From the IMG/VR virus record IMGVR_UViG_3300022752_000035, positions 1 through 64,000 of that record: DNA of 64,000 bases. One strand, given 5' to 3'. The notes beneath the pieces are model-generated. The model was not told the origin of the DNA, did no database searches, and saw only the letters and a program-made list of their open reading frames with translations. The stretch's first letter is position 1. Every line of letters begins with the position of its first letter. A program made the translations under genes and the position numbers. Origin of the DNA: a virus. This document shows positions 8,701-32,600 of the stretch, piece by piece.

Positions 8701-9117
8701 GGGCCCGTACTGGTATCGATTTTAAAAATTGGAATTAGAATGCAAGTAGAGTTAAAGTGGACTCTTTAAACAACTTTAAAATACTTAACTGCCAAATCAG
8801 CTAAGTTAAAAGGTAGTTTCTCTTTGAGAGTTTCTCACAAGAAGGACTCCCTAATCGCAGCCTAAAATCTGCGACCTGTTATCTACGACACATCTACTAG
8901 AATAATGGGTATTTAGATGTATATCTTTAAATCCTTTTTATTTAATTTTTAAAGATATTATTTAGGGTGAATGTTACTAAGGTAATATTTATAATTAAAT
9001 GAATAGTTATAGCTCGATTGCTTATTCGACACTATAGCGAAATAACGGAATAAGCTAAACTTGTAGTATTCTAGTTTAACTTTTTAAAAGACAGAGGTTC
9101 AACTCCTCTCGGGTCCA
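8701..9117 (+). ncRNA. ssrA: tmRNA (transfer-messenger RNA)
   Basis: 5' GGGCCCG pairs with 3' CGGGUCC-A, giving the G3-U alanine determinant. GGTATCGA D-loop region, T-arm AGAGG-TTCAACT-CCTCT, resume context TAACT-GCC. Tag ORF 8791-8865 AKSAKLKGSFSLRVSHKKDSLIAA*. CCA not encoded. Confidence 0.95.
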
Positions 9118-20463: not shown

Positions 20464-21387
20464 ATGAATATTGGGATTAGGCTTGAAGGTGGCTTAGGAG
20501 ATCATTTATTAGGAAATAGATTTCTTCATGCTATAAAAGATAAATATCCGAATAGTAATTTATATATATATTCTGATACAGAAAATAATAGCAACTCTTT
20601 AAATATATTAAGATCTCTTTATCCAAGTATTTATAAATATGATACTTCCGAAGTAATAAAATTTAGAAAAGATAAAAATTATAAAATACATACAAAATTT
20701 GGAGAAGAAACTTATCCAGCCGATATCAGTAACCTTCCAGATGAAATTACTGAAAAAATTAAAACATATGATAGATTTTATGATCTTCATATAGATGGAT
20801 TAAAATGGTTAAATTATGATTTTGATTGGTTTAGATACTACTATTTCTTTCCAAAACCAGAAATAAACATAAATAAAAAATACAATGAAAAGTATATAAT
20901 GGCACATTTTTATTCTAGGCCAGACTCACCATATAATTTAGATCAAACATATATAATTGATTTATTAACTGAATTAAGTAAATATATTAAAATAGTAGTT
21001 TTAACTCTAGAAGAGCACAAAGATTATTATAAAAACCTATTTAATAATCAAAATATTATTATAGATACAGCTTCAAATTTATTAGAAGTTTTTCAAATTG
21101 CTAGTGGATGTGAACTATTTATAGGTATTGATAGTGGAATTAGATATATACCATATCATTTTAGTAAACCAACATTTGTTTTTTCTAAATATTGCTCAAA
21201 GTACGGATCAGTAGCGCCATCGCATTTAATTAGATGGTTAATATTTGAAAAAAATGTATTTCCAATTAATTTTAATATTGAGATTGTAACCGCAATCATT
21301 AGTAATATCTTAAATAATCCAGCGAGCCAATTATTTCCAGAGTATGTTAACGGCATAGATTCTGCAATAGTTAATAGGTTTTTATAA
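20464..21387 (+). CDS. GT9-like (heptosyltransferase-type GT-B) glycosyltransferase
   Basis: EGGLGDHLL...IKDKYP and FIGIDSG motifs. Confidence 0.75.
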   Translation: MNIGIRLEGGLGDHLLGNRFLHAIKDKYPNSNLYIYSDTENNSNSLNILRSLYPSIYKYDTSEVIKFRKDKNYKIHTKFGEETYPADISNLPDEITEKIKTYDRFYDLHIDGLKWLNYDFDWFRYYYFFPKPEININKKYNEKYIMAHFYSRPDSPYNLDQTYIIDLLTELSKYIKIVVLTLEEHKDYYKNLFNNQNIIIDTASNLLEVFQIASGCELFIGIDSGIRYIPYHFSKPTFVFSKYCSKYGSVAPSHLIRWLIFEKNVFPINFNIEIVTAIISNILNNPASQLFPEYVNGIDSAIVNRFL

Positions 21388-21388
21388 A

Positions 21389-22138
21389 ATGATAGATATA
21401 AATAAAAAATATGGAATCAGAGATTATGATTCTGGAATTGGAGATGCAGTAATAAAAAGCTCATTCCCAGAAAATTTTTTCATGAATTATAATCAAAAGC
21501 TAATAGATATTGAAAGAAAATGGATTTTTGATTATAACCCATATGTAGAAAGAGATAAAGATCCCGATATCGTTTTACCTTTCTTAGAAAGGCAAAGAGA
21601 AATAATCAATAAAAATGAAAGAAAATCTCATCTTTCTCACGCAGAAGAATATTGTTTTAATTTTGACTTACCAAAATGTTTTTTAAGAAGACCAAGACTA
21701 TATAAATACGAAGATTTAGAAACAGACAAAAATCAAGTAGTTGTCCATACATTCGGTAAAACTGTTGGGCCAATGAAAGAATATATAAGAAAACAGATAA
21801 CAAAAAATTATCAAAATTATAAATTAATACAAATTGGAATGCCATATGATCCAATTATTGAAGGAGCAGAAGATGCTAGAGGTCTAAGCGTATGGGATTC
21901 AATTAAAATCATAGCATCCAGTTCTATTTTTATAGGGGTTAATAGTGGTTTTCATCATATATCTAAAGCGTATCCAAAAGTTAGATCTAAACTTATTTTA
22001 GAAGTACCACAAGATAGACTTTTGAATTTTAGACCTATGGATCTCAAAAATAACTTTGAGTGGTTTGAATTTGGAGTTGAATATTATAATGATACTGAAT
22101 ATGATATAGGTATAACAGATGCTTATTTAAAAATATGA
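21389..22138 (+). CDS. GT9-like glycosyltransferase
   Basis: GIGDAV, LIQIG, FIGVNSGFHHIS motifs. Confidence 0.7.
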   Translation: MIDINKKYGIRDYDSGIGDAVIKSSFPENFFMNYNQKLIDIERKWIFDYNPYVERDKDPDIVLPFLERQREIINKNERKSHLSHAEEYCFNFDLPKCFLRRPRLYKYEDLETDKNQVVVHTFGKTVGPMKEYIRKQITKNYQNYKLIQIGMPYDPIIEGAEDARGLSVWDSIKIIASSSIFIGVNSGFHHISKAYPKVRSKLILEVPQDRLLNFRPMDLKNNFEWFEFGVEYYNDTEYDIGITDAYLKI

Positions 22139-22728
22139 ATAAATTTATTAATTACGATAATCTATTTGATACCTTCCTAAAGTCAGGACAAGAAAGATTT
22201 TATACATTCAAAATTGCAATGAACTATTATTTAGAGAATAATGGTAAAATTATAGTAGAAACTGGTACTCAAAGACAAGTAGATGATTGGGGCGCGGGAT
22301 GTTCAACAAGTGCTTTAGGAAAATTCATGTCTGAATTTTCTCCAGAAAGTCATCTTTATTCTGTAGATATATCTAGTTTAAATCTAAAAATTTCTAAAGA
22401 GTTATGCTGTCAAAATTATCAGTCTTACATAAGCTGGCATGAACAAGACTCTATAACTTTTTTAAAAAACTTTAATAATAAAATAGATTTTCTATATTTA
22501 GATAGTTACGATTGGTTTGAACATGAGCCTCAATTAACAGAATGTCAAACTCATCAATTAAATGAAATGAAGGCCGCAATAGATAAAATGAATACAAAAT
22601 CTGTCATTTTACTTGATGATAATGATTTACCTGGAGGAGGCAAAACAAAATTAACCAAAGATTATTTAAGTAAAAATGATTGGATTTGTTTGCTTGATTT
22701 AAAACAGAGCGTTTGGATTAGAAAATAA
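22135..22728 (+). CDS. Class I SAM-dependent methyltransferase (Methyltransf_24-like)
   Basis: IVETGT, YSVDI, DSITFL, IDFLYLDS, ILLDD. Confidence 0.8.
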   Translation: MNKFINYDNLFDTFLKSGQERFYTFKIAMNYYLENNGKIIVETGTQRQVDDWGAGCSTSALGKFMSEFSPESHLYSVDISSLNLKISKELCCQNYQSYISWHEQDSITFLKNFNNKIDFLYLDSYDWFEHEPQLTECQTHQLNEMKAAIDKMNTKSVILLDDNDLPGGGKTKLTKDYLSKNDWICLLDLKQSVWIRK

Positions 22729-23529
22729 ATGCTATACAATTGTATACCATTTTATAATGAATTAGATTTATTAGATGTAAGATTGCACACAATGCACTCT
22801 TACGTTGATAAATTTATCATTGCAGAAATGGACACTACTCATTCTGGTAAAGAAAAACCATTTTATTTTGAACAGGCAAAGGAAAGATTTAAAGAGTTTG
22901 AATCTAAAATTATACATCTTAAAGTCCAAAGCCCAAGATCTGAGCATGCATGGACAAATGAAAACTATCAAAGAGACATAATCAAAAAATGGTTAGAAGA
23001 GAACGCGAATGATAATGATTTAGTTATAGTTCAAGATGCTGATGAGATTTTAAACGAAACTTTTATAGATAAAATAAAAGACATAGACTTATCTATACCA
23101 TATATTACTGAATTAGATTTTTATAGATATTATATCAATGCAGAAATTTTATCAGACAATAAAACATGGTCAAGTGGTCCTATAGTAAAATATAATTTTT
23201 TGAAAAATAATCCAAATATATCTCTAACAGGATTGAGAGATTTACATCCAGCTCTTAGACATCATAATAAAATCATCAAAAATTGTGGATGGCATTTTAC
23301 TTTTTTAGGAGGAGCAGAAGCAATAGCAGAAAAGATTAAAGCATATGCACATCAAGAAAGCAATAACGATTTTATAACAAATATAAATAGGTTAAAAGAT
23401 GCTTTAGATAATTGTCAAGATGCATGCAACCCAAATGGACCACCATTCAAGAAAATCGAATTAACAGAACAAAAATTCCCAAAATATATTGTAAACAATA
23501 AACAAAAATATATAAAATATATATTGTAA
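22729..23529 (+). CDS. GT17-like beta-1,4-N-acetylglucosaminyltransferase
   Basis: FYNELDLLDVR, THSGKEK, ENYQRD, DADEI, GWHFTFLG. Confidence 0.85.
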   Translation: MLYNCIPFYNELDLLDVRLHTMHSYVDKFIIAEMDTTHSGKEKPFYFEQAKERFKEFESKIIHLKVQSPRSEHAWTNENYQRDIIKKWLEENANDNDLVIVQDADEILNETFIDKIKDIDLSIPYITELDFYRYYINAEILSDNKTWSSGPIVKYNFLKNNPNISLTGLRDLHPALRHHNKIIKNCGWHFTFLGGAEAIAEKIKAYAHQESNNDFITNINRLKDALDNCQDACNPNGPPFKKIELTEQKFPKYIVNNKQKYIKYIL

Positions 23530-23530
23530 A

Positions 23531-24175
23531 ATGAATTTAACAAAAAAATATAATTTAAAAATTGAAATTGATCAAGGGAATGTTGTACATAATATTAATG
23601 ATTTTTTTCAAGATTATGGAGAAAATTTATTAATAGAAAATTTTGAAAAAATTTGTTTAAAAATTAAAAATGAAAAATCAAAGGCATCTATGATAGAGTT
23701 AGGCGCAAATTGGGCTTACTATTCTCTTTTATTTAAAGCTATAATTGGAAAAGATAGTACATTTAATATTATGTTGGAAGTGGATCCAAAAGCTTTTGTA
23801 AGAGGAGTTCATAATTTTAAAATAAATGAATTTGAAGGCGTTTTTTTGAATAAATTAATAGGAAATGAAGCTTATAGGATGCCGCATTTAAAAGATATTC
23901 CATGTGTTTCATTAGACCAGATCTTTAAAGAATACGATTTAAATGATTTAGATATATTGCATTCAGATATAGATGGATCAGAGCTCGATATGTTAATTCA
24001 AAATGAGAATATTTTTAAAAATAAAAAAATTAAATATATATTTATGCTTACTCATTCACAAGAACTTCATGAAAAATGCTTTAATTTTTTAAATAATTTA
24101 CAATATAATTGTATTTTAAATCATAATCATTTTAATGTTGGAGGACAGGATGCACTTCTTATCTTTGAATCCTAA
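23531..24175 (+). CDS. FkbM-like methyltransferase
   Basis: MIELGANWAYYS, SLDQI, LDILHSDIDGSE, LTHS. Confidence 0.75.
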   Translation: MNLTKKYNLKIEIDQGNVVHNINDFFQDYGENLLIENFEKICLKIKNEKSKASMIELGANWAYYSLLFKAIIGKDSTFNIMLEVDPKAFVRGVHNFKINEFEGVFLNKLIGNEAYRMPHLKDIPCVSLDQIFKEYDLNDLDILHSDIDGSELDMLIQNENIFKNKKIKYIFMLTHSQELHEKCFNFLNNLQYNCILNHNHFNVGGQDALLIFES

Positions 24176-24915
24176 TGAAAATAGCAATTTGCATATCTGG
24201 TTTGCCAAGATCATTTAAAAGAAGTTATCCTTTATTAGATAAAGTTTTTCTATCAAAATATAATTGCAATATATTTATTTCTACTTGGGATTGGCAAGTC
24301 AAAGAAATTCAAAAAAAACAAGAAACTAAAGATCAATTTGGTAAATCTATACCTATTACTGGAACTCATTGGTGGCCACAAGATGGAGACGCTAATGAAT
24401 TTATAAATATTTTTAAACCAAACAGATCAGAAATAGAAATTTTTAATGATTCTACATTAGAGTCTAAATTTAACTATTCTAATTATCAACAGCATGGAAT
24501 TAATAATAGTTTCCTGCCTATGTTCTATAAAGTTTGGAGAGCCAACGAATTAAGACTGTCTTATGAGAAAGAGCATAATATAAAATATGATCTAGTGTTA
24601 AGAACTAGAGGAGATATATCATATAATGGAATTTTATCTGATTATGAGATCAAAAACGCTTTATCGGGTTATGGATTTTGCAGGACGTCGTATCAAAACC
24701 CAGATACTCGACCTGGAGAACCAGAGCATATAAGCGACATTTATTTTTTATCAAATCCAGAAAAGGCTAATTTATATGCAAATTTTTGGTTATATCATAA
24801 ACAAGTATTAGAAAATACAAAATCATTTATTGCTGAAATAAATTTAGAAGCTTATCTTCACGCTGTAGGAGTTAAATGGGTAGCAACAGGACTTGATATA
24901 GATGTATTAAGATGA
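24175..24915 (+). CDS. Putative glycosyltransferase (GT-A-like)
   Basis: MKIAICISGLPR, FISTW, KYDLVLRTRGD motifs typical of polysaccharide-locus proteins. Confidence 0.65.
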   Translation: MKIAICISGLPRSFKRSYPLLDKVFLSKYNCNIFISTWDWQVKEIQKKQETKDQFGKSIPITGTHWWPQDGDANEFINIFKPNRSEIEIFNDSTLESKFNYSNYQQHGINNSFLPMFYKVWRANELRLSYEKEHNIKYDLVLRTRGDISYNGILSDYEIKNALSGYGFCRTSYQNPDTRPGEPEHISDIYFLSNPEKANLYANFWLYHKQVLENTKSFIAEINLEAYLHAVGVKWVATGLDIDVLR

Positions 24916-25634
24916 AAATAAATATAGTAATACCTATGGCTGGACTAGGAAAGAGATTTGAAAAAACTCATCCCAATACTCCTAAACCATTTATTGATAT
25001 AAAAAATGAATTAATGTTATCAAGAGTTATTGATAATTTAAAAAATGATATAGTACAATTTATTTTTATATCTCAAAATACTCTTTTTGAAGATGTAAGA
25101 TTTAAACAAATAGTCACCAATCATAAAATTAATTATAAAACAGTAATCGCACCAGAAAAAACAGATGGACCAGCATGTTCTTGTCTTTTAGCTAAAGATA
25201 TTATTAACAATGATGATTCGCTGATCATAATTAATTGTGATCAAATAATATTAGACTTTAATTTAAGTAACTTATTAAATTTTGTTAAATATAATAATGC
25301 CGATGGAGTTCTAGGAGCATTTCATTCTACATCATCTAAGAATAGTTACATAAAATTAGGAGATGATTTAAGAATACAAGATATCAAAGAAAAGATAGTT
25401 ATTAGCAACATCGCTACAAATGGTTTACATTTTTGGAAGTATGGTAAATTTTTTATACAATCTGCAGAAAAAATGATTAATTTAAATGATAAATATAGTA
25501 ATGAATTCTATGTTGCTCCAAGTTATAATTATCTAATAAAAGAGGGCAAAACTATATTACCTTACTATTATAATCTTCATTATCCAATAGGAATACCAGA
25601 AGATTTAGAATATTTTACTAAAAATATAATATGA
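24912..25634 (+). CDS. Sugar/polyol-phosphate nucleotidyltransferase (NTP_transferase family)
   Basis: IVIPMAGLGKRF...PKPFI, TDGPACS, INCDQ, IKEK, EFYVAPSYN, GIPEDL. Confidence 0.85.
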   Translation: MKINIVIPMAGLGKRFEKTHPNTPKPFIDIKNELMLSRVIDNLKNDIVQFIFISQNTLFEDVRFKQIVTNHKINYKTVIAPEKTDGPACSCLLAKDIINNDDSLIIINCDQIILDFNLSNLLNFVKYNNADGVLGAFHSTSSKNSYIKLGDDLRIQDIKEKIVISNIATNGLHFWKYGKFFIQSAEKMINLNDKYSNEFYVAPSYNYLIKEGKTILPYYYNLHYPIGIPEDLEYFTKNII

Positions 25635-26590
25635 ACATATTATTTATAGGTAACAATGCTGTTTTGCCAGATTATTTACATGATTCTGTTTTTCATGGAT
25701 TAAGAGAAGTTTATGGAGCGTCGGTAGTAGATGCAAATAAATTATGGTATTTATATGAAGATTGCAACTTGTTTGATGAAAAAAATTTTGAAACCATTAG
25801 AAAACCTTTACATGGATGGGGATATACATATGGCGGAAATTTAAAAGATTTAAATATTGATAGAGTAGATATATATTCTAAAATTAAAAATAAATACTTT
25901 GATTTAGTTATTTTTGGCATTTGTAGAAATGACCCTAAAGATTCTAGCAAAGCTATTTATGAAAGAGATGATTTATTAAATAAATGCCTGCAAATTTACC
26001 CATCAAACAAATTAATATTTTTAGATGGAAGTGACGGTCAAGATATCAAAAGAGAAGATCTATTAAATAAAGGTTTTTATTTTAAAAGAGAAAATATAGG
26101 AATAGGTTATCCTATTTGGTTTGCAATCCCTAAACAAAAATTTAATTTTAATTATGAAAAAATAAAACTATTTTCTAATAATATTCCAGCTCATAACAGA
26201 AAAAATTATACTCATTTTACAGAAAAATCTTACTATTCAGACTATGGTCAAAGTTTTTTTGCTATAACCTGTAAAAAAGGTGGATGGGATTGCATGAGGC
26301 ACTATGAAATAATGTCTCAAGGAACATTACCATATTTTGTAGATATTGATAAATCTCCTATACAAACAATGCCACTTATAAATCGTAAATTTTGCCAAGA
26401 AACAAAAACTTTAATTGATATAAAATATGATCTTTGGCAACAAATTGATTTACAAATACTAAGTGAGATTAAAGATATGAATAAGTATGAATATTTAAGA
26501 AATTTAATGATAAGTCAAGTTAAAGAACTATATAATACAGAAACATTGGCGAAATACATTATAGATACAGTAAATCATGAAAATAGATAA
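25631..26590 (+). CDS. Putative GT-B glycosyltransferase
   Basis: DYLHDSVFHGLR, IFLDGSD, FYFKRE, KKGGWDCMRHYEI. Confidence 0.65.
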   Translation: MNILFIGNNAVLPDYLHDSVFHGLREVYGASVVDANKLWYLYEDCNLFDEKNFETIRKPLHGWGYTYGGNLKDLNIDRVDIYSKIKNKYFDLVIFGICRNDPKDSSKAIYERDDLLNKCLQIYPSNKLIFLDGSDGQDIKREDLLNKGFYFKRENIGIGYPIWFAIPKQKFNFNYEKIKLFSNNIPAHNRKNYTHFTEKSYYSDYGQSFFAITCKKGGWDCMRHYEIMSQGTLPYFVDIDKSPIQTMPLINRKFCQETKTLIDIKYDLWQQIDLQILSEIKDMNKYEYLRNLMISQVKELYNTETLAKYIIDTVNHENR

Positions 26591-26903
26591 TATTAAAAAT
26601 TATAAAGGAGGTTGGTTTATAGGTGATTTTAAACCTACCACATTTAAAACTAAAGAATTTGAAATATGTTATAAAAAACATAAAAAAAATGAAATATGGC
26701 CAAAACATTATCATAAAGTGGCTACAGAATATAATTATTTAATATCTGGTAAAATGAAAATTCAAAATAAAATTTTAAAAAAAGGTAATATATTCATATT
26801 ATATCCTAATGAGGTTGCTGATCCAATTTTCCTGGAAGATTGTGAGCTTATAGTAATTAAAACTCCATCTATCAAAAAAGATAAATACAATGTTAAACTA
26901 TAA
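26577..26903 (+). CDS. Cupin (RmlC-like) protein
   Basis: GGWFIGDFKP, HYHKVATEYN metal motif, GNIFILYP, VIKTPS. Confidence 0.8.
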   Translation: MKIDNIKNYKGGWFIGDFKPTTFKTKEFEICYKKHKKNEIWPKHYHKVATEYNYLISGKMKIQNKILKKGNIFILYPNEVADPIFLEDCELIVIKTPSIKKDKYNVKL

Positions 26904-28107
26904 TATATTTAAAACAGACGACCAATTAGATAAAGATTTTTTTAATAGATATTATATTGTATCTTATGATTTAGAATCAAAAACTAATCTTCGAGATGCA
27001 GCTTGGAATCTTGCTATAGGTCAATCTATTGGAAATCCAAGTGCAAGATCAGAGTTTGAAACACAAGATATGATAGACAATCATTGTGCTATAGTATTAG
27101 CAGACGAAAAAGAGCTTCTTAATAAGAATAAAGGTAATGTAAAATTTGCTTTTCCACAAGCTAATATAAATTTTGAAACAGATGGAATTAGTCAGCTACT
27201 AGTTCAAATCATGGGCGGACAATGTGATATAGATATTATTTATCGTTGTTTTATAACAGATTTACAATTGACTAAAAGCATGGAATGTTTATTAAAAGGA
27301 CCAAAAATAGGATTAAAACAAATAAAGGAATATTGCAATATAAGTGATGATAAACCAATATTTGGAGGAATTGTAAAACCAAAAATAGGATTATCTCCTC
27401 AAAAAAATCTTGATTTAGTGAAACAAATGATTGATGGAGGATGCAATTTTATTAAAGAAGATGAAATTCTTTCTGACCCAGAGCATTGTCCAATTCATAA
27501 AAGAGTTCCATTGGTTATGGATTATTTAAGAAGCACTGGATCAAAAGTCTTTTATGCTGTATCTATACACGCAGACCATTCTCAAATTTTAAAAAGAGTC
27601 AAACAAGTTTATGAATTAGGTGGAAATGGTGTTCATATTAATTTTCATTGTGGATTAGGAGCATATAAAAGTGTCAGAGAATTAAATTTACCTATTTTAA
27701 TACATTTTCAAAAAAGTGGTGATAAAATTTTAAATTGTTTAGATCATAGATATGGAATTGATCAAAATGTTATATTTAAGCTTGTAGCTCAAAGTGGTTG
27801 TTCTACATTACATGCTGGTATGATTGGTGGTTACATGGATAATGAAACCGTAGAAGTTAAAAAAACAATAAAGATTTTAAATGATGTTAATGCTGTACCA
27901 GCTCTTAGTTGCGGTATGCATCCTGGACTAATTGATTATATTATGAATCAAGTTGGACATGGAAATTGGATGGCAAATGTTGGTGGAGCATTATCTTCGC
28001 ACCCTATGGGCACATTAGCTGGAACAAAAGCTATGCGCCAATCTATAGACAGGAATTATGAGATAGAATATAAAAAAGCTATAGAAAAATGGGGATATAA
28101 AAAATGA
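26890..28107 (+). CDS. RuBisCO-like protein (form IV / RLP)
   Basis: GGIVKPKIGLS, GGCNFIKEDE, LHAG, PALSCGMHPG, VGGALSSHPMG. The H294 and loop-6 K334 positions appear to be Q and Y. Confidence 0.92.
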   Translation: MLNYNIFKTDDQLDKDFFNRYYIVSYDLESKTNLRDAAWNLAIGQSIGNPSARSEFETQDMIDNHCAIVLADEKELLNKNKGNVKFAFPQANINFETDGISQLLVQIMGGQCDIDIIYRCFITDLQLTKSMECLLKGPKIGLKQIKEYCNISDDKPIFGGIVKPKIGLSPQKNLDLVKQMIDGGCNFIKEDEILSDPEHCPIHKRVPLVMDYLRSTGSKVFYAVSIHADHSQILKRVKQVYELGGNGVHINFHCGLGAYKSVRELNLPILIHFQKSGDKILNCLDHRYGIDQNVIFKLVAQSGCSTLHAGMIGGYMDNETVEVKKTIKILNDVNAVPALSCGMHPGLIDYIMNQVGHGNWMANVGGALSSHPMGTLAGTKAMRQSIDRNYEIEYKKAIEKWGYKK

Positions 28108-28544
28108 TGCTTATAGCCCATAGAGGCAATTTTAATGGACCAAATTTAAAAGAAGAAAATACAATAAAATATATTGAGAATGCATTGAAAAATGGATTTG
28201 AAGTAGAAATTGATGTAAAAATGCATAAAAACAATATTTATAGTGGACATGATAAACCTATAGAGGTTTTAACTGAAAAATGGTTAAATAAATACTATAA
28301 AAAACTATGGATACATTGTAAAGACGCTCAAAGCCTAAAATATTTTGCAAATCATAATAAATACAATTATTTTTGGCATGAAGATGATGCTTTTACTATA
28401 ACGTCCAAAGGATTCATATTATCTCATATTGATAATAATATAAATAAATTATCAGGGAAATTTATTAAAATTAATTTTAATAACAAGAAAATAAATGGTA
28501 ATTTCGTTGGAATATTATCTGATTATGTTATATTATATAAATAA
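28104..28544 (+). CDS. Glycerophosphodiester phosphodiesterase-like protein
   Basis: LIAHRGN, ENT, VEIDV, GHD, LWIHCK, FWHEDD. Confidence 0.85.
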   Translation: MMLIAHRGNFNGPNLKEENTIKYIENALKNGFEVEIDVKMHKNNIYSGHDKPIEVLTEKWLNKYYKKLWIHCKDAQSLKYFANHNKYNYFWHEDDAFTITSKGFILSHIDNNINKLSGKFIKINFNNKKINGNFVGILSDYVILYK

Positions 28545-28882
28545 TGATAGATCTTTTAGTAGATGAAGCTTATGCATTTGATTATTTAAGCATTTTGCAT
28601 GTAAAAAAAGAATTAAACGAAAAAGTAGCCCCTAATTGGCATAATTGTTATATTCATATAGAAAAACAAATATCTAGCGATTTAATGAATAAAATTGTTA
28701 ATTCTCAAGAATATCATAATATGATAAACGCTAATAAAATAACTTTTGACGCAGTTGAAAAAGCTAGATATGGCAACATAACTGCAAAAGAAGTAGATGA
28801 AGCAAATATGTTAAGATATAAAAGAAAATTAGAATTACAAAACAAATTCTTTAATAATATATTAACGGAGATAAAAACTTAA
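28544..28882 (+). CDS. Hypothetical helical protein (DUF6165-like)
   Basis: DYLSILHVK...NMLRYKRK...EIKT pattern recalled from glycan-locus-associated proteins. Confidence 0.5.
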   Translation: MIDLLVDEAYAFDYLSILHVKKELNEKVAPNWHNCYIHIEKQISSDLMNKIVNSQEYHNMINANKITFDAVEKARYGNITAKEVDEANMLRYKRKLELQNKFFNNILTEIKT

Positions 28883-30042
28883 TGAGTTTAAACTTTATGG
28901 AAACATATTACGGAAAAAAAATAGATACTGCGAATATTCTGAATATAGATGATGCAAGCAAATTATTAGATGGCAGAAAAGTAGTAGTTATTACAGGCGT
29001 TACTGGACAAGATGGAAGTCATATGGTGGATTATTTATTGAAGCACACAAATTATATTATATTTGGTGGAGTCAGGAGATTAAGCGTGTATAATCACGAA
29101 AATATCAGACATATAGATTCTGATCGTTTTCATCTTATTAATTTTGACCTTACAGATGCCCACGCCATAGCAAGAACTGTAGAAAAATTAAAGCCAGATT
29201 ATTTTATCAATTTTGCAGCTCAAAGTTTTGTTGCAAGTAGTTGGGATTTTGCAAGACAAACTTGGGCTACAAATTCTACATCTGTATTAGACATATTAGA
29301 AGCTATTAGACTTTATAAACCATCTTGTAGATTATATCAAGCTGGATCTAGCGAAGAATTTGGAAATGTTATTTACTCTCCTCAAGATGAAAATCATCCA
29401 TTAAGGCCCAGAAGTCCATATGGAGCTAGTAAAGCTGCTTCACGACAATTAATTAAAGTATACAGAGAATCATATAATCTTTACGCTATACAAGGATGGC
29501 TATTTAATCACGAAGGTCCAAGAAGAGGAGAAGAGTTTGTAACAAGAAAAATTACTAAAAAAGTTGCTCAAATATTTAATGCAATTAAAAATGAACAACC
29601 ATTTACACCATTACAATTAGGAAATGTTGATGCCAAGAGAGATTGGAGTGATTCAGAAGACTTTATTGATGGCGTTTGGAGGATGTTGAATCAAGATAAG
29701 TATAATCCTAAATATGACGGTATTCCTAAAGAATATGTATTTTCATCAAATGAAACTCACACTATTAGAGAGTTTGTTGAATTAGCTTTTGCTTATTGTT
29801 ACATGATAGGAAAATGGGAAAATAAAACTGGTAAACCAGAAGATGAAAAATATTATGTTTATTTACAAAATAAACCAGTTTTAGTAGTAGAAATTAACCC
29901 AAAATTTTATCGTCCAGCAGAAGTTGAATTATTATTAGGTAATTCAAATAAAGCAAGAAACGAATTAGAATGGAAACCAAATATAACTTTTCCTATGCTA
30001 GTAGATAAAATGATACGAAATGATTTAGAGCAGTATGAATAA
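28882..30042 (+). CDS. gmd: GDP-mannose 4,6-dehydratase
   Basis: ITGVTGQDGS, AAQSFV, YQAGSSEEFG, PRSPYGASK, LFNHEGPRRGEEFVTRKIT, FYRPAEVELLLG. Confidence 0.95.
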   Translation: MSLNFMETYYGKKIDTANILNIDDASKLLDGRKVVVITGVTGQDGSHMVDYLLKHTNYIIFGGVRRLSVYNHENIRHIDSDRFHLINFDLTDAHAIARTVEKLKPDYFINFAAQSFVASSWDFARQTWATNSTSVLDILEAIRLYKPSCRLYQAGSSEEFGNVIYSPQDENHPLRPRSPYGASKAASRQLIKVYRESYNLYAIQGWLFNHEGPRRGEEFVTRKITKKVAQIFNAIKNEQPFTPLQLGNVDAKRDWSDSEDFIDGVWRMLNQDKYNPKYDGIPKEYVFSSNETHTIREFVELAFAYCYMIGKWENKTGKPEDEKYYVYLQNKPVLVVEINPKFYRPAEVELLLGNSNKARNELEWKPNITFPMLVDKMIRNDLEQYE

Positions 30043-30432: not shown

Positions 30433-31428
30433 ATGAAAAATCCAGAAGATATAATAATTTCTTTTTACAAAGATAAAGAAATCAGAGGAACTATGTATGA
30501 TTTTTCTCGTGAAATTAAAGCAATATATACCTTGCCAAAGCTCGGAGAAAATATATTATTGTCAAGTATTCCAGAAAAATGCTCTAAAGAATATAAAAAC
30601 ATAAATTTTTTAAATACAAATATTTATTCAGAATTCGTATTTTCAAGAAATCCATATTATACCGATCAGAAAGATGCAAGTTTTTTCAATATACAAAAGG
30701 CAAAGAATCCAGTTAATTTAGATCAAATTATATCGAATTTTAATTGTGGAAATGGTAATTCTTTGCAACAATTTTGTAGGGCTTTAGGACTTAATGTTGA
30801 TATTAAACCAAAGGGTAATTTATATATTCCTCAAAAAAATAAAAAACATAACACAATAGGACTTCATTTAGATTGTATAAGTGGAAAGTCTATTTTAGAT
30901 AAGTATACAAGAAATTTATATAAAGAGAATTTGCAAATATTGCAGCAATTTATTAATAATAACTCTCATAAATACCAATTTATTCAATTTGGACAAAGTT
31001 TAGGAAAAGATGAAATTAATAATAAAATAGGACTTCTAAATAATGTAGAAGACTATCTTGACAAGACTTTAGCCGAGACTGCTGAGAAAATCGCAGAATG
31101 TGAATATTTTATTTGCGTAAATAGCGCGTTTTATCACTTATCTATATCTTTAGATATAAAAACGATTTGCATTATTAGCTTACCATCAATTTACGATTGT
31201 TATTTACCCATATTAGTAAATGAAATGTTATTATGTAAACCCCCATTTTTAAGATGGGAAAAAAATTGTTTATATCCTCAAGCTGTTCACCTTCACCAAG
31301 ATGGAGAAAATCATTTAGTAAAAAAATTTTCAATAATTAATCTTGAAAAAGCTATAAATGGAGAAGTTTATCCATTTTGGAACGATAAATATTTAAATTT
31401 AATAAATGATTTTAAATTGACAAATTAG
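30433..31428 (+). CDS. GT9-like glycosyltransferase
   Basis: FIQFG, LAETAEKIAECEYFICVNSAFYHLS. Confidence 0.65.
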   Translation: MKNPEDIIISFYKDKEIRGTMYDFSREIKAIYTLPKLGENILLSSIPEKCSKEYKNINFLNTNIYSEFVFSRNPYYTDQKDASFFNIQKAKNPVNLDQIISNFNCGNGNSLQQFCRALGLNVDIKPKGNLYIPQKNKKHNTIGLHLDCISGKSILDKYTRNLYKENLQILQQFINNNSHKYQFIQFGQSLGKDEINNKIGLLNNVEDYLDKTLAETAEKIAECEYFICVNSAFYHLSISLDIKTICIISLPSIYDCYLPILVNEMLLCKPPFLRWEKNCLYPQAVHLHQDGENHLVKKFSIINLEKAINGEVYPFWNDKYLNLINDFKLTN

Positions 31429-31445
31429 TAAATTAATTTTATAAT
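31417..31445 (+). promoter_or_regulatory. Consensus sigma70 promoter for a leaderless recA mRNA
   Basis: TTGACA (31417), N17, TATAAT (31440-31445); ATG 6 nt later. Confidence 0.85.
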
Positions 31446-31451
31446 ATAATT

Positions 31452-32600
31452 ATGGCAAAAATTAAAGACAAAGATCAAGCGACAAATAGCGGAAATGCAT
31501 TATCAAATAATGAATATTTAAAATCTTTTTTAAAAGATAATAAAGAGGACCATTATAATTTCGAAGATGAAACTTATTATAAAGTATCATCTGGAAGTCT
31601 TAATTTAGATTTCGTTATGGGTGGAGGATTTTGCCCTGGATTGCATAGGTTTTTGGGCATGAATGAAGGCGGAAAGACAAGTGAAGCCTTGGAAGTCTTA
31701 AAGAATTTTTTGAATACAGTTCCAAACTCTAGAGGAGTCTTAATTAAAGCAGAAGGAAGACTATCTAAAGAAATTCAAGAAAGGTCTGGAGTCGTATTTG
31801 TAACAAACGCAGACGAATGGAAGGACGGAAATTGCTTTATCTTTGAATCAAATATATTTGAAACAGTCTCTGAATTAATGCTTGAATTAGTAAAAAATAA
31901 TCCAGAAAATAAAAAATATTTATTCATTTTAGATTCTGTTGATGGTTTAATGCCAAAAAATGACGCAGTTAAAACTCTTTCTGATGCAACAAAAGTAGCA
32001 GGAGGAGCAGTAATTTCATCAGTTTTAATGAAAAAAATGTCTATTGCTTTGTCTAAAAGAGGTCATATGGCAATATTTATAAGTCAAGTTCGTTCAGACA
32101 TTAAATTAGATCCATATGCAGCGAATAAAGATATTCGTCAAACTACAGCGACAGGTGGAAACGCTCTTTTGCATTTTGCAAATTGGATTTTAGAATTTGA
32201 ACCAAGGTTTAACAAAGATCTTATTCTTGAGAAACCAAATGAAAAATATGATCCAATTAAAAATAAAATTGTTGGTCATACAGCTAAACTTACAATTAAG
32301 AAATCTACAAATGAGACAACAAATCATAAAGTAGAATATCCTATTAAGCATGGACGAAAAAATGGTTCATCTATTTGGAGAGAGTATGAAATTATTGATC
32401 AATTAATCGCTTGGCAATTCGTAACAGCTAAAGGAGCCTGGATTACTATTGGAGATGAATTAATAAAAGAATTAAAAAATGCTGGGTTAGATTTAATTAA
32501 ACAACATCAAGGTATGGATAATTTCAGAAAATATTTAGAAGAAAATCCTAAAATAACAGAATATCTTTTTGATAAATATAAAAAACTTATACCTGCATGA
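31452..32600 (+). CDS. recA: RecA/UvsX-like recombinase
   Basis: SSGSLNLD, Walker A GMNEGGKTS, Walker B FILDSVD, IFISQVR, TGGNALLH. Confidence 0.9.
   Translation: MAKIKDKDQATNSGNALSNNEYLKSFLKDNKEDHYNFEDETYYKVSSGSLNLDFVMGGGFCPGLHRFLGMNEGGKTSEALEVLKNFLNTVPNSRGVLIKAEGRLSKEIQERSGVVFVTNADEWKDGNCFIFESNIFETVSELMLELVKNNPENKKYLFILDSVDGLMPKNDAVKTLSDATKVAGGAVISSVLMKKMSIALSKRGHMAIFISQVRSDIKLDPYAANKDIRQTTATGGNALLHFANWILEFEPRFNKDLILEKPNEKYDPIKNKIVGHTAKLTIKKSTNETTNHKVEYPIKHGRKNGSSIWREYEIIDQLIAWQFVTAKGAWITIGDELIKELKNAGLDLIKQHQGMDNFRKYLEENPKITEYLFDKYKKLIPA

What the first reader, a model, noticed from the sequence alone, without database searches (positions are those of the whole stretch)
24912..28544. Phage-encoded RuBisCO-like protein inside a nucleotidyltransferase-cupin-RLP-phosphodiesterase glycan module
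Seen: a full-length RuBisCO-superfamily protein in an overlapping-gene run with an NTP transferase, a GT, a cupin and a GDPD, upstream of gmd. By-eye alignment to RbcL: K175/K177 (KPK), K201-x-D203-E204 (KEDE) and H327 are kept, while E60 appears as G, N123 is absent, H294 is Q and loop-6 K334 is Y. Known: form IV RLPs do not fix CO2 and act as enolases, isomerases or transcarboxylases on sugar phosphates in methionine salvage and branched-sugar catabolism. Inference: here the RLP is biosynthetic, making an unusual (perhaps branched or polyol) sugar phosphate that is nucleotide-activated and transferred by the neighbouring GTs. I do not know of a characterised pathway of this kind.
Basis: partly seen in the sequence, partly recalled or inferred. 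Interest (0 to 1): 0.82.

Follow-up and report, generated by a model that had tools for sequence, protein, structure and literature searches.

The report
Phage RuBisCO-like sugar-activation gene cassette
A large freshwater phage carries an intact relative of RuBisCO that cannot fix CO2; in phages, SAR11, Legionella and tiny archaea this gene travels with, or is fused to, a nucleotide-attaching enzyme, so it probably prepares an unusual sugar phosphate for a surface glycan, a role never tested for this enzyme family.

Summary
ORF 26890-28107 is a full-length RuBisCO-superfamily protein. Its Mg/carbamate centre is intact (K175, K177, K201, D203, E204). The carboxylation residues are replaced (E60G, N123G, H294Q, K334Y).

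It sits in a run of overlapping genes: GT-A-fold protein, nucleotidyltransferase, a variable 319-aa ORF, cupin, RLP, a 146-aa mini-GDPD and GMD.

The family forms one well-separated clade whose active-site signature is invariant in 61 of 61 members. It matches 383 IMG/VR contigs and 47 species genomes.

The nucleotidyltransferase lies within four genes of the RLP in 44 of 50 dereplicated loci. In a 128-member protein cluster it is fused to the RLP.

Sister cassettes lack the RLP. There the same nucleotidyltransferase is fused to RpiB (0 of 32 loci carry an RLP) or to RibB. Both enzymes act on ribulose-5-phosphate.

My best reading is that the RLP is an enolising isomerase. It would hand a pentulose-type phosphate to the nucleotidyltransferase for glycan decoration. 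This is inferred, not assayed.

Phage RLPs were already reported by Jaffe et al. (2019, PMC6389311), with function unknown. I found no paper describing the cassette. This scan has found the same cassette before, on other DNA, in at least 67 genomes.

The parts
24175..24915 (+). DUF7796-like protein with a GT-A glycosyltransferase fold; candidate transferase of the cassette
   Evidence: PF25072 matches weakly and phrog_13607 at 2.8e-13. The AF2 model has pLDDT 87.2. Foldseek finds GT6 GT-A transferases at E about 1e-6, prob 1.0, TM 0.43-0.48. The family recurs beside the RLP in 65 loci and is fused to the mini-GDPD in L066.
24912..25634 (+). Nucleotidyltransferase of the 4evw-like NDP-sugar pyrophosphorylase family; the universal partner of the RLP
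   Evidence: PF00483 matches at 3.5e-10, phrog_3980 at 3e-49 and PDB 4evw at 6.7e-8. It lies within 4 genes of the RLP in 23/25 viral and 21/25 cellular dereplicated loci. It is fused to the RLP in P0122.
25631..26590 (+). 319-aa ORF, a variable insert; possibly a GT-B-like glycosyltransferase (lead only)
   Evidence: No Pfam, NCBIfam or PHROG hit. The Atlas structural search gives TM 0.74 to a Glyco_trans_1_2 cluster. Homologues occur in only 7-9 loci.
26577..26903 (+). Small metal cupin (108 aa), with an HxH..E motif and an invariant Cys89; probably an isomerase or epimerase
   Evidence: Alignments A1 and A6. phrog_24762 matches at 3.5e-37. By profile it matches cupins in PDB, including 7zvm 'mannose-6-phosphate isomerase'. 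It lies within 2 genes of the RLP in 23/25 viral loci. It is fused to the C-terminus of the NTP transferase in 6 loci.
26890..28107 (+). RuBisCO-like protein (405 aa, P0001) of the 'form IV-like' clade; non-carboxylating, with the Mg/carbamate site intact
   Evidence: PF00016 matches at 1.3e-34. All NCBIfam equivalog cut-offs are missed. The best PDB match is 8dht at 4.8e-32. The family is one clade with SH-aLRT 100.
28104..28544 (+). Mini-GDPD (146 aa), a truncated glycerophosphodiester-phosphodiesterase-like barrel
   Evidence: The motifs H6 R7 G8, E18 N19, E35 x D37 and G48 H49 D50 are invariant in 29 sequences. It matches PDB 7e0v GDPD at 5e-4. The AF2 model has pLDDT 88.8. The top Foldseek hits are GDPDs. 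Full-length relatives (L026) and an NTP-fused relative (L025) pass the PF03009 cut-off.
28544..28882 (+). 112-aa ORF of unknown function, not a conserved cassette member
   Evidence: No family hits. Homologues occur in 5 loci.
28882..30042 (+). GDP-mannose 4,6-dehydratase-like SDR
   Evidence: PF16363 matches at 4.2e-98. TIGR01472 scores 311 bits, below its cut-off of 415. SDR genes lie near the RLP in 50 of 126 loci.
20464..24175 (+). Upstream part of the glycan island: two unknown ORFs, a Methyltransf_24 gene, a GT17-like gene and an FkbM methyltransferase
   Evidence: Pfam scan. The genes are tightly packed on one strand.
31417..31445 (+). Perfect sigma-70 consensus promoter marking the start of the replication module and so the downstream limit of the island
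   Evidence: 12 of 12 matches, TTGACA-17-TATAAT. It is followed by a RecA-like gene at 31452.

Best explanation
The 405-aa protein is a catalytically competent but non-carboxylating member of the RuBisCO superfamily, in the 'form IV-like' clade.

Proposed mechanism (inferred). Like all characterised family members, it uses a Mg2+ ion held by a carbamylated lysine, D203 and E204 to enolise a keto-sugar phosphate. Here the substrate is probably a monophosphate of the pentulose type, derived from ribulose-5-phosphate. The enzyme isomerises it into a rare keto-sugar phosphate.

Downstream steps (inferred). The adjacent 4evw-type nucleotidyltransferase then joins that phosphate ester to a nucleotide, giving NDP-X, probably of the CDP-alditol or CDP-ketose kind. 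The small cupin tailors the sugar by isomerisation or epimerisation. The GT-A-fold DUF7796 protein and/or the mini-GDPD put the unit onto a glycan. In Legionella a LicD phosphotransferase is the likely counterpart of that last step.

Role in the phage (inferred). The cassette is part of an island of about 11 kb that remodels a surface glycan during infection.

Shown versus inferred. Shown: the fold and family, the residue signature, the conserved linkage, the fusions and the replacement by RpiB or RibB. Inferred: the reaction, the substrate, the order of steps and the acceptor.
For: (1) The Mg/carbamate site and the P1 phosphate site are invariant in 61/61 members: K175, K177, K201, D203, E204, S379, G381 and G403 (G404 in 60/61). 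E60, N123, H294 and K334 are replaced in 61/61. The distal-phosphate residues are changed, R295K in 58/61 and H298D in 55/61. This pattern fits an active enoliser of a monophosphate.

(2) The NTP transferase lies within 4 genes of the RLP in 23/25 viral and 21/25 cellular dereplicated loci, in varying order and orientation. It is within 5 kb in 118 of 126 loci.

(3) Fusions link the partners:
- RLP-NTP: P0122, 667 aa, PF00016 plus PF00483. Its NTP part is 37% identical to the window's (E 2e-44). Its cluster has 128 members from several projects.
- NTP-cupin in 6 loci.
- NTP-GDPD in L025, HAD-NTP, and GHMP kinase-NTP.
- GDPD-DUF7796 in L066.

(4) Non-orthologous replacement, RpiB. In 32/32 viral loci where the same NTP family is fused to an RpiB sugar-phosphate isomerase, the cupin and DUF7796 are present. 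The mini-GDPD is present in 30/32, in the same gene order, and no RLP is present. None of the 126 RLP loci has an RpiB.

(5) Non-orthologous replacement, RibB. In phage S-SKS1 and its relatives the NTP is fused to RibB, preceded by three DUF7796 genes. RibB uses ribulose-5-phosphate (established knowledge), as does RpiB.

(6) The neighbours are glycan genes:
- LicD in four Legionellaceae.
- Wzy_C, a GT and an SDR in SAR11.
- Methyltransferases, WavE, UDP-GlcNAc 2-epimerase and DegT.
Against: No biochemical data exist for any member. The substrate is not identified.

The NTP transferase resembles sugar-1-phosphate enzymes (RmlA/GlmU-like hits, all below cut-off). It may therefore need an anomeric phosphate rather than a primary ester.

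The cupin is absent from 16 of 25 cellular loci, and the mini-GDPD from about half of them. The cassette is therefore not one fixed pathway.

The RpiB and RibB cassettes are each known only from narrow phage clades. They could make different products.

My tree lacks the MtnW, DeepYkr, Photo and NonPhoto reference sequences.

Some 'cellular' MAG contigs may be misbinned phages.
Confidence: 0.62

Rival explanations
1. The order of steps is reversed. The nucleotidyltransferase first activates an ordinary sugar phosphate. The RLP, with the cupin, then enolises the NDP-linked keto-sugar, with the diphosphate sitting in the conserved P1 site.
For: In L060 the cupin is fused to a C-methyltransferase of the NDP-hexose type, with Methyltransf_14 and Methyltransf_23 hits. 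GMD and other SDRs that make NDP-4-keto sugars lie near the RLP in 50 of 126 loci. Fusions show coupling but not order.
Against: All characterised RuBisCO-family substrates are free sugar phosphates (established knowledge). In sister cassettes the RLP is replaced by RpiB and RibB, which act on free ribulose-5-phosphate. GMD-type genes are absent from more than half of the loci.
Confidence: 0.15
2. The RLP, with the cupin, turns a ketose phosphate into a ketose-1-phosphate and then into an aldose-1-phosphate. This would be the reverse of the MtnA or R15P-isomerase logic. It would give the nucleotidyltransferase an anomeric phosphate without a mutase or an anomeric kinase, and the product would be a normal NDP-sugar used by the GT-A protein.
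For: The NTP transferase resembles sugar-1-phosphate nucleotidyltransferases. NTP-cupin fusions parallel the type II PMI-GMP enzymes (established knowledge). IF-2B-type isomerases are fused to bona fide-like RuBisCOs (P0156, P0202). DUF7796 has a GT-A fold.
Against: The RibB product has no anomeric carbon, yet RibB is fused to the same NTP family. LicD in Legionella and the GDPD link point to phosphodiester transfer. The cupin is missing in many cellular loci.
Confidence: 0.12
3. The RLP is a salvage or catabolic auxiliary gene, acting in methionine salvage, 5-deoxyribose or acid-sugar breakdown. Its place in the glycan island would be incidental.
For: All characterised RLPs are salvage or catabolic enzymes (established knowledge; PMC6389311 introduction). 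There are weak HMM hits to MtnW (125 bits) and OiaX (112 bits).
Against: The scores are far below the cut-offs of 409 and 700. The family is a separate clade from the OiaX-type RLPs. No mtn genes or acid-sugar kinase genes lie nearby. Linkage and fusion to the NTP transferase hold across domains.
Confidence: 0.04
4. The cassette makes a sugar donor for hypermodifying phage DNA rather than a surface glycan.
For: In the window the island lies directly before the replication module: RecA-like, DnaB, ThyX and primase genes.
Against: The same cassette lies in cellular glycan loci of SAR11, Legionella, Verrucomicrobia and DPANN, with Wzy, LicD and GTs. No DNA glycosyltransferase or base-modifying enzyme was found next to it.
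Confidence: 0.04

Closest known systems
'Form IV-like' RuBisCO-related proteins of phages and Beckwithbacteria (Jaffe, Castelle, Dupont & Banfield 2019, Mol Biol Evol; PMC6389311)
   Same: They are phage-borne, highly divergent RLPs on large myovirus-type genomes, grouped with Beckwithbacteria sequences and lacking the carboxylase residues. A Beckwithbacteria MAG sequence (L022, 46% identity) falls inside my family clade.
   Different: That paper left the function 'unclear'. Its main text does not mention nucleotidyltransferase, glycosyl or polysaccharide context. I show a much wider cellular range (SAR11, Legionella, Verrucomicrobia, DPANN), the conserved cassette, the fusions and the RpiB/RibB replacements. 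I could not compare directly with their sequences.
Rhodospirillum rubrum RLP (5-methylthioribulose-1-phosphate 1,3-isomerase) with its cupin partner (MTXu-5P methylsulfurylase) in the MTA-isoprenoid shunt (recalled from Erb et al. 2012 and Warlick et al. 2012; not retrieved here)
   Same: An RLP works as an enolising isomerase of a pentulose monophosphate and is paired with a small cupin. This is the best mechanistic precedent.
   Different: That pathway is a salvage route with no nucleotidyltransferase. My cupin profile does not hit that cupin's structure at E <= 1. I had no R. rubrum sequence for the tree.
MtnW/YkrW 2,3-diketo-5-methylthiopentyl-1-phosphate enolase and OiaX 3-oxo-isoapionate-4-phosphate decarboxylase (NCBIfam NF007095, TIGR03332, NF042437)
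   Same: They share the fold and the retained K175, K201, D203 and E204 centre.
   Different: The scores are 125, 98 and 112 bits against cut-offs of 409, 514 and 700. OiaX-type sequences form a separate clade and keep H294, R295 and K334. The gene neighbours differ.
CDP-alditol and phosphocholine decoration pathways (TarI/TarJ CDP-ribitol; LicC/LicD) (established knowledge)
   Same: A phosphate ester derived from ribulose-5-phosphate or the like is joined to CMP by an NTP_transferase-fold enzyme, then transferred as X-phosphate by LicD-type enzymes. LicD sits beside RLP-NTP in Legionellaceae.
   Different: Those pathways contain no RuBisCO-family enzyme, cupin or mini-GDPD. The nucleotide used here is unknown.
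RLP-less sister cassettes of cyanophages: Bellamy gp096 and SynMITS9220M01_192 (NTP-RpiB), S-SKS1 SWZG_00042 (NTP-RibB)
   Same: They have the same NTP family, the same cupin (50% identity), the same DUF7796 and the same mini-GDPD, in the same order.
   Different: They have an RpiB or RibB domain instead of the RLP. GenBank annotates these proteins as 'phosphatase' or only as DHBP synthase. They too are uncharacterised.

Membership tests
RuBisCO large-subunit superfamily (PF00016) | Match to the catalytic TIM-barrel domain above Pfam's gathering score, with an N-terminal domain in front of it | tested here: met
   120.3 bits against a cut-off of 30.1, covering residues 154-324 and beyond. About 150 N-terminal residues align to RLP N-domains in PDB hits such as 2oej residues 6-382.
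RuBisCO large-subunit superfamily (PF00016) | Carbamylatable Lys201 with the Mg ligands Asp203 and Glu204, plus Lys175 | tested here: met
   K189, D191, E192 and K163 are invariant in 61/61 family members.
Bona fide RuBisCO (forms I-III) | Carboxylation residues E60, N123, H294 and K334, and the distal phosphate site R295 and H298 | tested here: not met
   The residues are G, G, Q and Y in 61/61 members. R295 is K in 58/61 and H298 is D in 55/61. TIGR03326 scores 151 bits against a cut-off of 497, and NF003252 scores 140 against 438.
MtnW (DK-MTP-1-P enolase) | NCBIfam equivalog score | tested here: not met
   NF007095 scores 125 against 409, and TIGR03332 scores 98 against 514.
MtnW (DK-MTP-1-P enolase) | Methionine-salvage gene neighbours | tested here: not met
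   The neighbours are NTP transferase, cupin, GDPD, GTs and methyltransferases.
OiaX-type acid-sugar RLPs | Equivalog score, an adjacent four-carbon acid-sugar kinase, and same-clade placement | tested here: not met
   NF042437 scores 112 against 700. The family is a separate clade with SH-aLRT 100. Kinases lie next to the reference genes but not here.
'Form IV-like' phage/Beckwithbacteria clade (Jaffe et al. 2019) | Phylogenetic grouping of phage RLPs with Beckwithbacteria sequences, apart from the other forms | tested here: inconclusive
   A Beckwithbacteria MAG sequence groups inside my family. The description in PMC6389311 fits.
GDPD (PF03009), for ORF 28104-28544 | Pfam score above the cut-off over a full barrel of about 240 aa | tested here: not met
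   The window's 146-aa protein has no PF03009 hit. Only residues 2-57 match a PDB GDPD.
GDPD (PF03009), for ORF 28104-28544 | Catalytic motifs (HR, EN, ExD, HD) and the fold | tested here: met
   The motifs are invariant in 29 sequences. The top Foldseek hits are GDPDs, 2pz0 with TMq 0.64, but E is only 0.015. Longer relatives pass the PF03009 cut-off.
Cupin superfamily, for ORF 26577-26903 | Metal motif G(x)5HxH(x)3-4E(x)6G and a beta-barrel | tested here: met
   H44, H46, E51 and G58 are invariant in 41 sequences. The profile hits cupins in PDB down to 8.6e-7. The second-motif His is absent.
GT-A glycosyltransferases, for ORF 24175-24915 | GT-A Rossmann-like fold with an acidic (DxD-like) motif | tested here: inconclusive
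   Foldseek prob is 1.0 and E about 1e-6 to GT6 enzymes, but TM is only 0.43-0.48. Y138, R145 and D147 are invariant and D139 is nearly invariant. Activity is untested.

The most novel reading that the evidence does not exclude
This clade would be the first anabolic branch of the RuBisCO superfamily. Its enzyme would convert a ribulose-5-phosphate-type pentulose phosphate into a rare keto-sugar phosphate. That phosphate would be nucleotide-activated as a primary phosphate ester and installed on cell-surface glycans, probably through a phosphodiester. The cassette would be mobile and shared by phages, SAR11, Legionella, CPR bacteria and DPANN archaea. The RLP, RpiB and RibB would be interchangeable front ends of it.
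Probability: 0.4. Interest if true: 0.85.

Novelty: new variant of a known kind. Interest (0 to 1): 0.74.

Why it matters
The functions of most RuBisCO-like proteins are unknown, and every characterised one works in salvage or catabolism. A biosynthetic role coupled to glycan synthesis would widen the chemistry known for this fold.

It would also explain why hundreds of aquatic phages carry a 'RuBisCO' gene. It would point to an undescribed activated sugar, or sugar phosphate, on the surfaces of very abundant bacteria such as SAR11 and of Legionella species. Such a structure could matter for phage adsorption and serotype diversity.

The fusions and the RpiB/RibB replacements narrow the candidate substrates enough to make the question directly testable with purified enzymes.

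Tried and rejected
**Tool that was closed**
I took gene contexts from the search for related loci instead.

**Searches that found nothing**
- No RLP match in 50,697 GenBank phage records.
- No hit in genome contigs with patterns from the single sequence. The search with the alignment did work.
- No RNA holder was listed for the stretch.
- The promoter and terminator scan showed no enrichment over shuffles, apart from one perfect promoter at 31417.
- No RpiB or RibB in the window's own record, which is 63% complete.

**Ideas rejected**
- The weak PF00101 RuBisCO_small hit of the 146-aa ORF (E 0.0085, no passing stretch) is chance. The protein is GDPD-like.
- I tested whether the cupin is the R. 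rubrum methylsulfurylase type. The profile does not hit that structure.
- DUF7796 is not LicD: there is no similarity and the fold is GT-A.

**Leads left untested**
- Literature searches for RLP together with LicD, cupin, nucleotidyltransferase or nucleotide sugar found nothing relevant.
- The 'BcbE/KfoE-like, fructose side chain' lead came from earlier notes. The P. multocida paper (PMC13552107) shows that bcbE and bcbG are needed for the fructose branch, but it gives no fold. I could not obtain the sequence. No close homologue of the window's NTP transferase is named BcbE.

**Other limits**
- My label 'form II' for L148 was wrong. It groups with the OiaX-type RLPs.

Full report
**What is in the window**

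The window is part of a large, low-GC (about 27%) phage genome. It carries class I ribonucleotide reductase, a DnaE-type polymerase, virion and tail proteins and a tmRNA. It lies in an IMG/VR virus record of 95,984 bp that CheckV rates 63% complete. The stretch is held by lake and freshwater metagenomes.

Between about 20464 and 31428 there is a run of tightly packed + strand genes with 1-14 nt overlaps. A perfect sigma-70 promoter at 31417-31445 starts the replication module, and the run ends just before it.

The finding's coordinates hold five genes:
- an NTP transferase (24912-25634; PF00483 at 3.5e-10)
- a 319-aa ORF without any family hit
- a 108-aa cupin
- the 405-aa RuBisCO-family protein (26890-28107; PF00016 at 1.3e-34)
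- a 146-aa ORF

GMD follows, and a 246-aa DUF7796-like gene lies just upstream.

**Checking the residue claims**

I aligned the protein with form I sequences (Cupriavidus pHG1, Azospirillum), with form III sequences that pass the TIGR03326 cut-off, and with OiaX-type RLPs.
- K175, K177, K201, D203, E204 and H327 are kept.
- S379, G381, G403 and G404 are kept.
- E60 is G, N123 is G, H294 is Q and K334 is Y.
- R295 is K, H298 is D, T65 is N and W66 is P.

The protein misses all six NCBIfam RuBisCO/RLP cut-offs by a wide margin. Its best PDB relatives are only 4.8e-32 and weaker. It therefore has an intact metal/carbamate centre but cannot be a carboxylase. It is neither an MtnW nor an OiaX equivalog.

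**The family**

The protein has 2466 relatives at E <= 1e-10 in the 5.8-billion-protein collection, the best 120 at 52-90% identity. About 25 full-length clusters at 50% identity score above 200 bits. The family's patterns matched 383 IMG/VR contigs and 47 loci in species-representative genomes. Those include:
- a complete Candidatus Pelagibacter chromosome and many SAR11 single-cell genomes
- a closed Verrucomicrobiae chromosome
- three cultured Legionella species and a Tatlockia MAG
- Francisellaceae, Bacteroidota and Turneriella
- Beckwithbacteria and other Patescibacteria
- Woese-, Nano-, Pace- and Micrarchaeota

In Pelagibacter, Legionella drozanskii and the Verrucomicrobiae chromosome it is the only RuBisCO-family gene.

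In a maximum-likelihood tree the 61 family rows form one clade. It has SH-aLRT support of 100 and a stem length of 0.68. It stands apart from form I, form III, form II and the OiaX-type RLPs. Phage sequences are nested among cellular ones. The active-site signature is practically invariant across the whole clade, which argues for one conserved reaction.

The tree has limits. It was a quick search with LG+G4. It lacks YkrW, DeepYkr, Photo and NonPhoto references, which I could not fetch.

**The cassette**

I called ORFs in 126 loci and searched them with HMMs built from the window's genes.
- The NTP transferase lies within 5 kb of the RLP in 118 loci.
- The mini-GDPD does so in about 92 loci.
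- The cupin does so in 77 loci as a free gene and in 6 more as a C-terminal domain of the NTP transferase.

After dereplication to 50 loci:

| Partner | Distance from the RLP | Viral loci | Cellular loci |
|---|---|---|---|
| NTP transferase | within 4 genes | 23/25 | 21/25 |
| Cupin | within 2 genes | 23/25 | 9/25 |
| Mini-GDPD | within 4 genes | 20/25 | 11/25 |

The NTP transferase is mostly upstream in phages and downstream in half of the cellular loci.

Fusions tie the parts together:
- An RLP-NTP transferase protein of 667 aa (P0122) is in-family at 50% identity. Its NTP domain is 37% identical to the window's (E 2e-44). Its 90% cluster has 128 members from Tara, JGI, MGnify and ENA.
- NTP-cupin fusions occur in six loci.
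- NTP-GDPD (L025), HAD_2-NTP and GHMP kinase-NTP fusions occur, and a cupin is fused to a C-methyltransferase.
- GDPD is fused to DUF7796 in L066.

The remaining neighbours are typical glycan genes:
- LicD lies divergently next to RLP-NTP in four Legionellaceae.
- Wzy_C, a GT and an SDR occur in SAR11.
- Methyltransferases of the FkbM, TylF and Methyltransf_24 kinds, WavE, UDP-GlcNAc 2-epimerase and a DegT aminotransferase occur in phages.

**The smaller parts**

The 146-aa ORF keeps the GDPD catalytic motifs in all 29 aligned homologues. Its first 57 residues match a Pyrococcus GDPD by profile. It folds with pLDDT 88.8 into a shortened barrel whose best Foldseek matches are GDPDs, though with weak E-values. 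Full-length and NTP-fused relatives pass Pfam's GDPD cut-off.

The DUF7796-like protein folds with pLDDT 87.2 into a GT-A-like structure. Foldseek finds GT6 enzymes at E about 1e-6 with TM 0.43-0.48.

It is a variable insert.

**Sister cassettes without the RLP**

Cultured cyanophages have the same cupin (50% identity), mini-GDPD and DUF7796 genes but no RLP.

In Bellamy and SynMITS9220M01 the gene annotated 'phosphatase' is the cassette's NTP transferase. It hits the family HMM at 3e-72 and is 41% identical to an RLP-linked NTP domain. It is fused to an RpiB-type sugar-phosphate isomerase domain, which matches PDB 1o1x at 1.8e-28.

This fusion recurs in at least 42 IMG/VR contigs. Among the 32 such loci of 9 kb or more:
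- all have the cupin and DUF7796
- 30 have the mini-GDPD
- none has an RLP
- the order DUF7796, NTP-RpiB, cupin, mini-GDPD mirrors the window's order

Conversely, none of the 126 RLP loci has an RpiB.

In phage S-SKS1 and at least eight uncultured relatives the same NTP family is fused to RibB (DHBP synthase; PDB 3h07 at 1.2e-47). The fusion gene is preceded by three DUF7796 genes.

RpiB makes or uses ribulose-5-phosphate, and RibB consumes it. The RuBisCO fold is built for ribulose phosphates. The three enzymes therefore look like interchangeable front ends of one activation-and-transfer cassette.

The RibB product has no anomeric carbon. That suggests this NTP transferase activates a primary phosphate ester, as in CDP-ribitol or CDP-choline chemistry. 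This fits LicD in Legionella and the phosphodiesterase-like partner.

**Mechanism**

These steps are inferred, not shown.
1. The RLP enolises a pentulose-type monophosphate and isomerises it.
2. The NTP transferase attaches a nucleotide.
3. The cupin tailors the sugar.
4. The GT-A protein and/or the mini-GDPD (LicD in Legionella) transfer the unit to a glycan.

The retained P1 phosphate site and the altered distal site fit a monophosphate substrate.

Four alternatives remain. The RLP may act on the NDP-linked sugar. The RLP and cupin may make an aldose-1-phosphate. The RLP may have a salvage role. The cassette may serve DNA modification. They are weighed in the rival explanations. The last two are unlikely, given the cross-domain linkage to glycan genes.

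**Comparison with what is known**

Phage RLPs are not new as sequences. Jaffe et al. (2019, PMC6389311) reported about 80 'Form IV-like' sequences on phage contigs, grouped with Beckwithbacteria, and left the function open. Their main text does not mention the nucleotidyltransferase or glycan context.

My full-text searches found no paper that links RLPs to nucleotidyltransferases, LicD, cupins or nucleotide sugars.

Earlier agents of this scan reached the same reading on other genomes: 106 notes in at least 67 genomes. I reached mine from my own calls before reading theirs.

One of their leads, a BcbE/KfoE-like NTP transferase tied to fructose side chains, stays untested.

**Verdict**

I rate it a new variant of a known kind, with interest 0.74.

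Noticed in passing
L009:5835-6989 (MT408532.1 SynMITS9220M01_192) and L010:6835-7992 (Bellamy gp096): The genes annotated 'phosphatase' in GenBank are fusions of a 4evw-like nucleotidyltransferase with an RpiB-type sugar-phosphate isomerase domain (PDB 1o1x at 1.8e-28). They recur in at least 42 IMG/VR contigs.
   Followed up: yes
L157:5998-7425 (NC_020851.1 S-SKS1 SWZG_00042): This gene is annotated only as DHBP synthase. It is in fact a nucleotidyltransferase-RibB fusion of 475 aa, preceded by three DUF7796 GT-A-like genes. That implies a nucleotide-activated four-carbon ketose phosphate, which I have not seen described.
   Followed up: partly
P0165 (583 aa): A TIR_2 domain is fused to a complete RuBisCO-like protein (N-terminal and catalytic domains), 29% identical to the window's RLP. 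The pairing is odd and reminiscent of defence-system architectures.
   Followed up: no
P0156 (726 aa) and P0202 (742 aa): IF-2B family isomerase domains (MtnA or ribose-1,5-bisphosphate isomerase type) are fused to RuBisCO large subunits. This puts the two consecutive steps of the AMP pathway or methionine salvage in one protein.
   Followed up: no
window 8701-9117 (+): The phage encodes a tmRNA with tag peptide AKSAKLKGSFSLRVSHKKDSLIAA. It lies in a stretch without ORFs between the RNR genes and the first virion gene.
   Followed up: no
window 31417-31445 (+): A perfect TTGACA-17-TATAAT promoter ends 6 nt before the ATG of the RecA-like gene at 31452, with no room for a Shine-Dalgarno site.
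   Followed up: partly
L148 (Azospirillum oleiclasticum, G004:C66): This RuBisCO-family gene, which I first labelled form II, groups with the OiaX-type and Haloterrigena acid-sugar RLPs. The same genome also holds a form I gene and a member of the cassette family (L047) that has no nucleotidyltransferase beside it.
   Followed up: partly
L011 (Saccharibacteria MAG contig, 37 kb) and L012 ('uncultured bacterium' contig, 372 kb): These are the window RLP's nearest 'cellular' relatives (65-66% identity) and sit inside a phage subclade of the tree. The contigs may be phages binned into MAGs, and the 372-kb one may be a jumbo phage.
   Followed up: no
L017:8885-9205 (Ca. Pelagibacter Uisw_094): The mini-GDPD of the complete Pelagibacter genome is only 106 aa in my ORF call, shorter than the usual 140-155 aa. 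It may be truncated or may start at an unusual codon.
   Followed up: no
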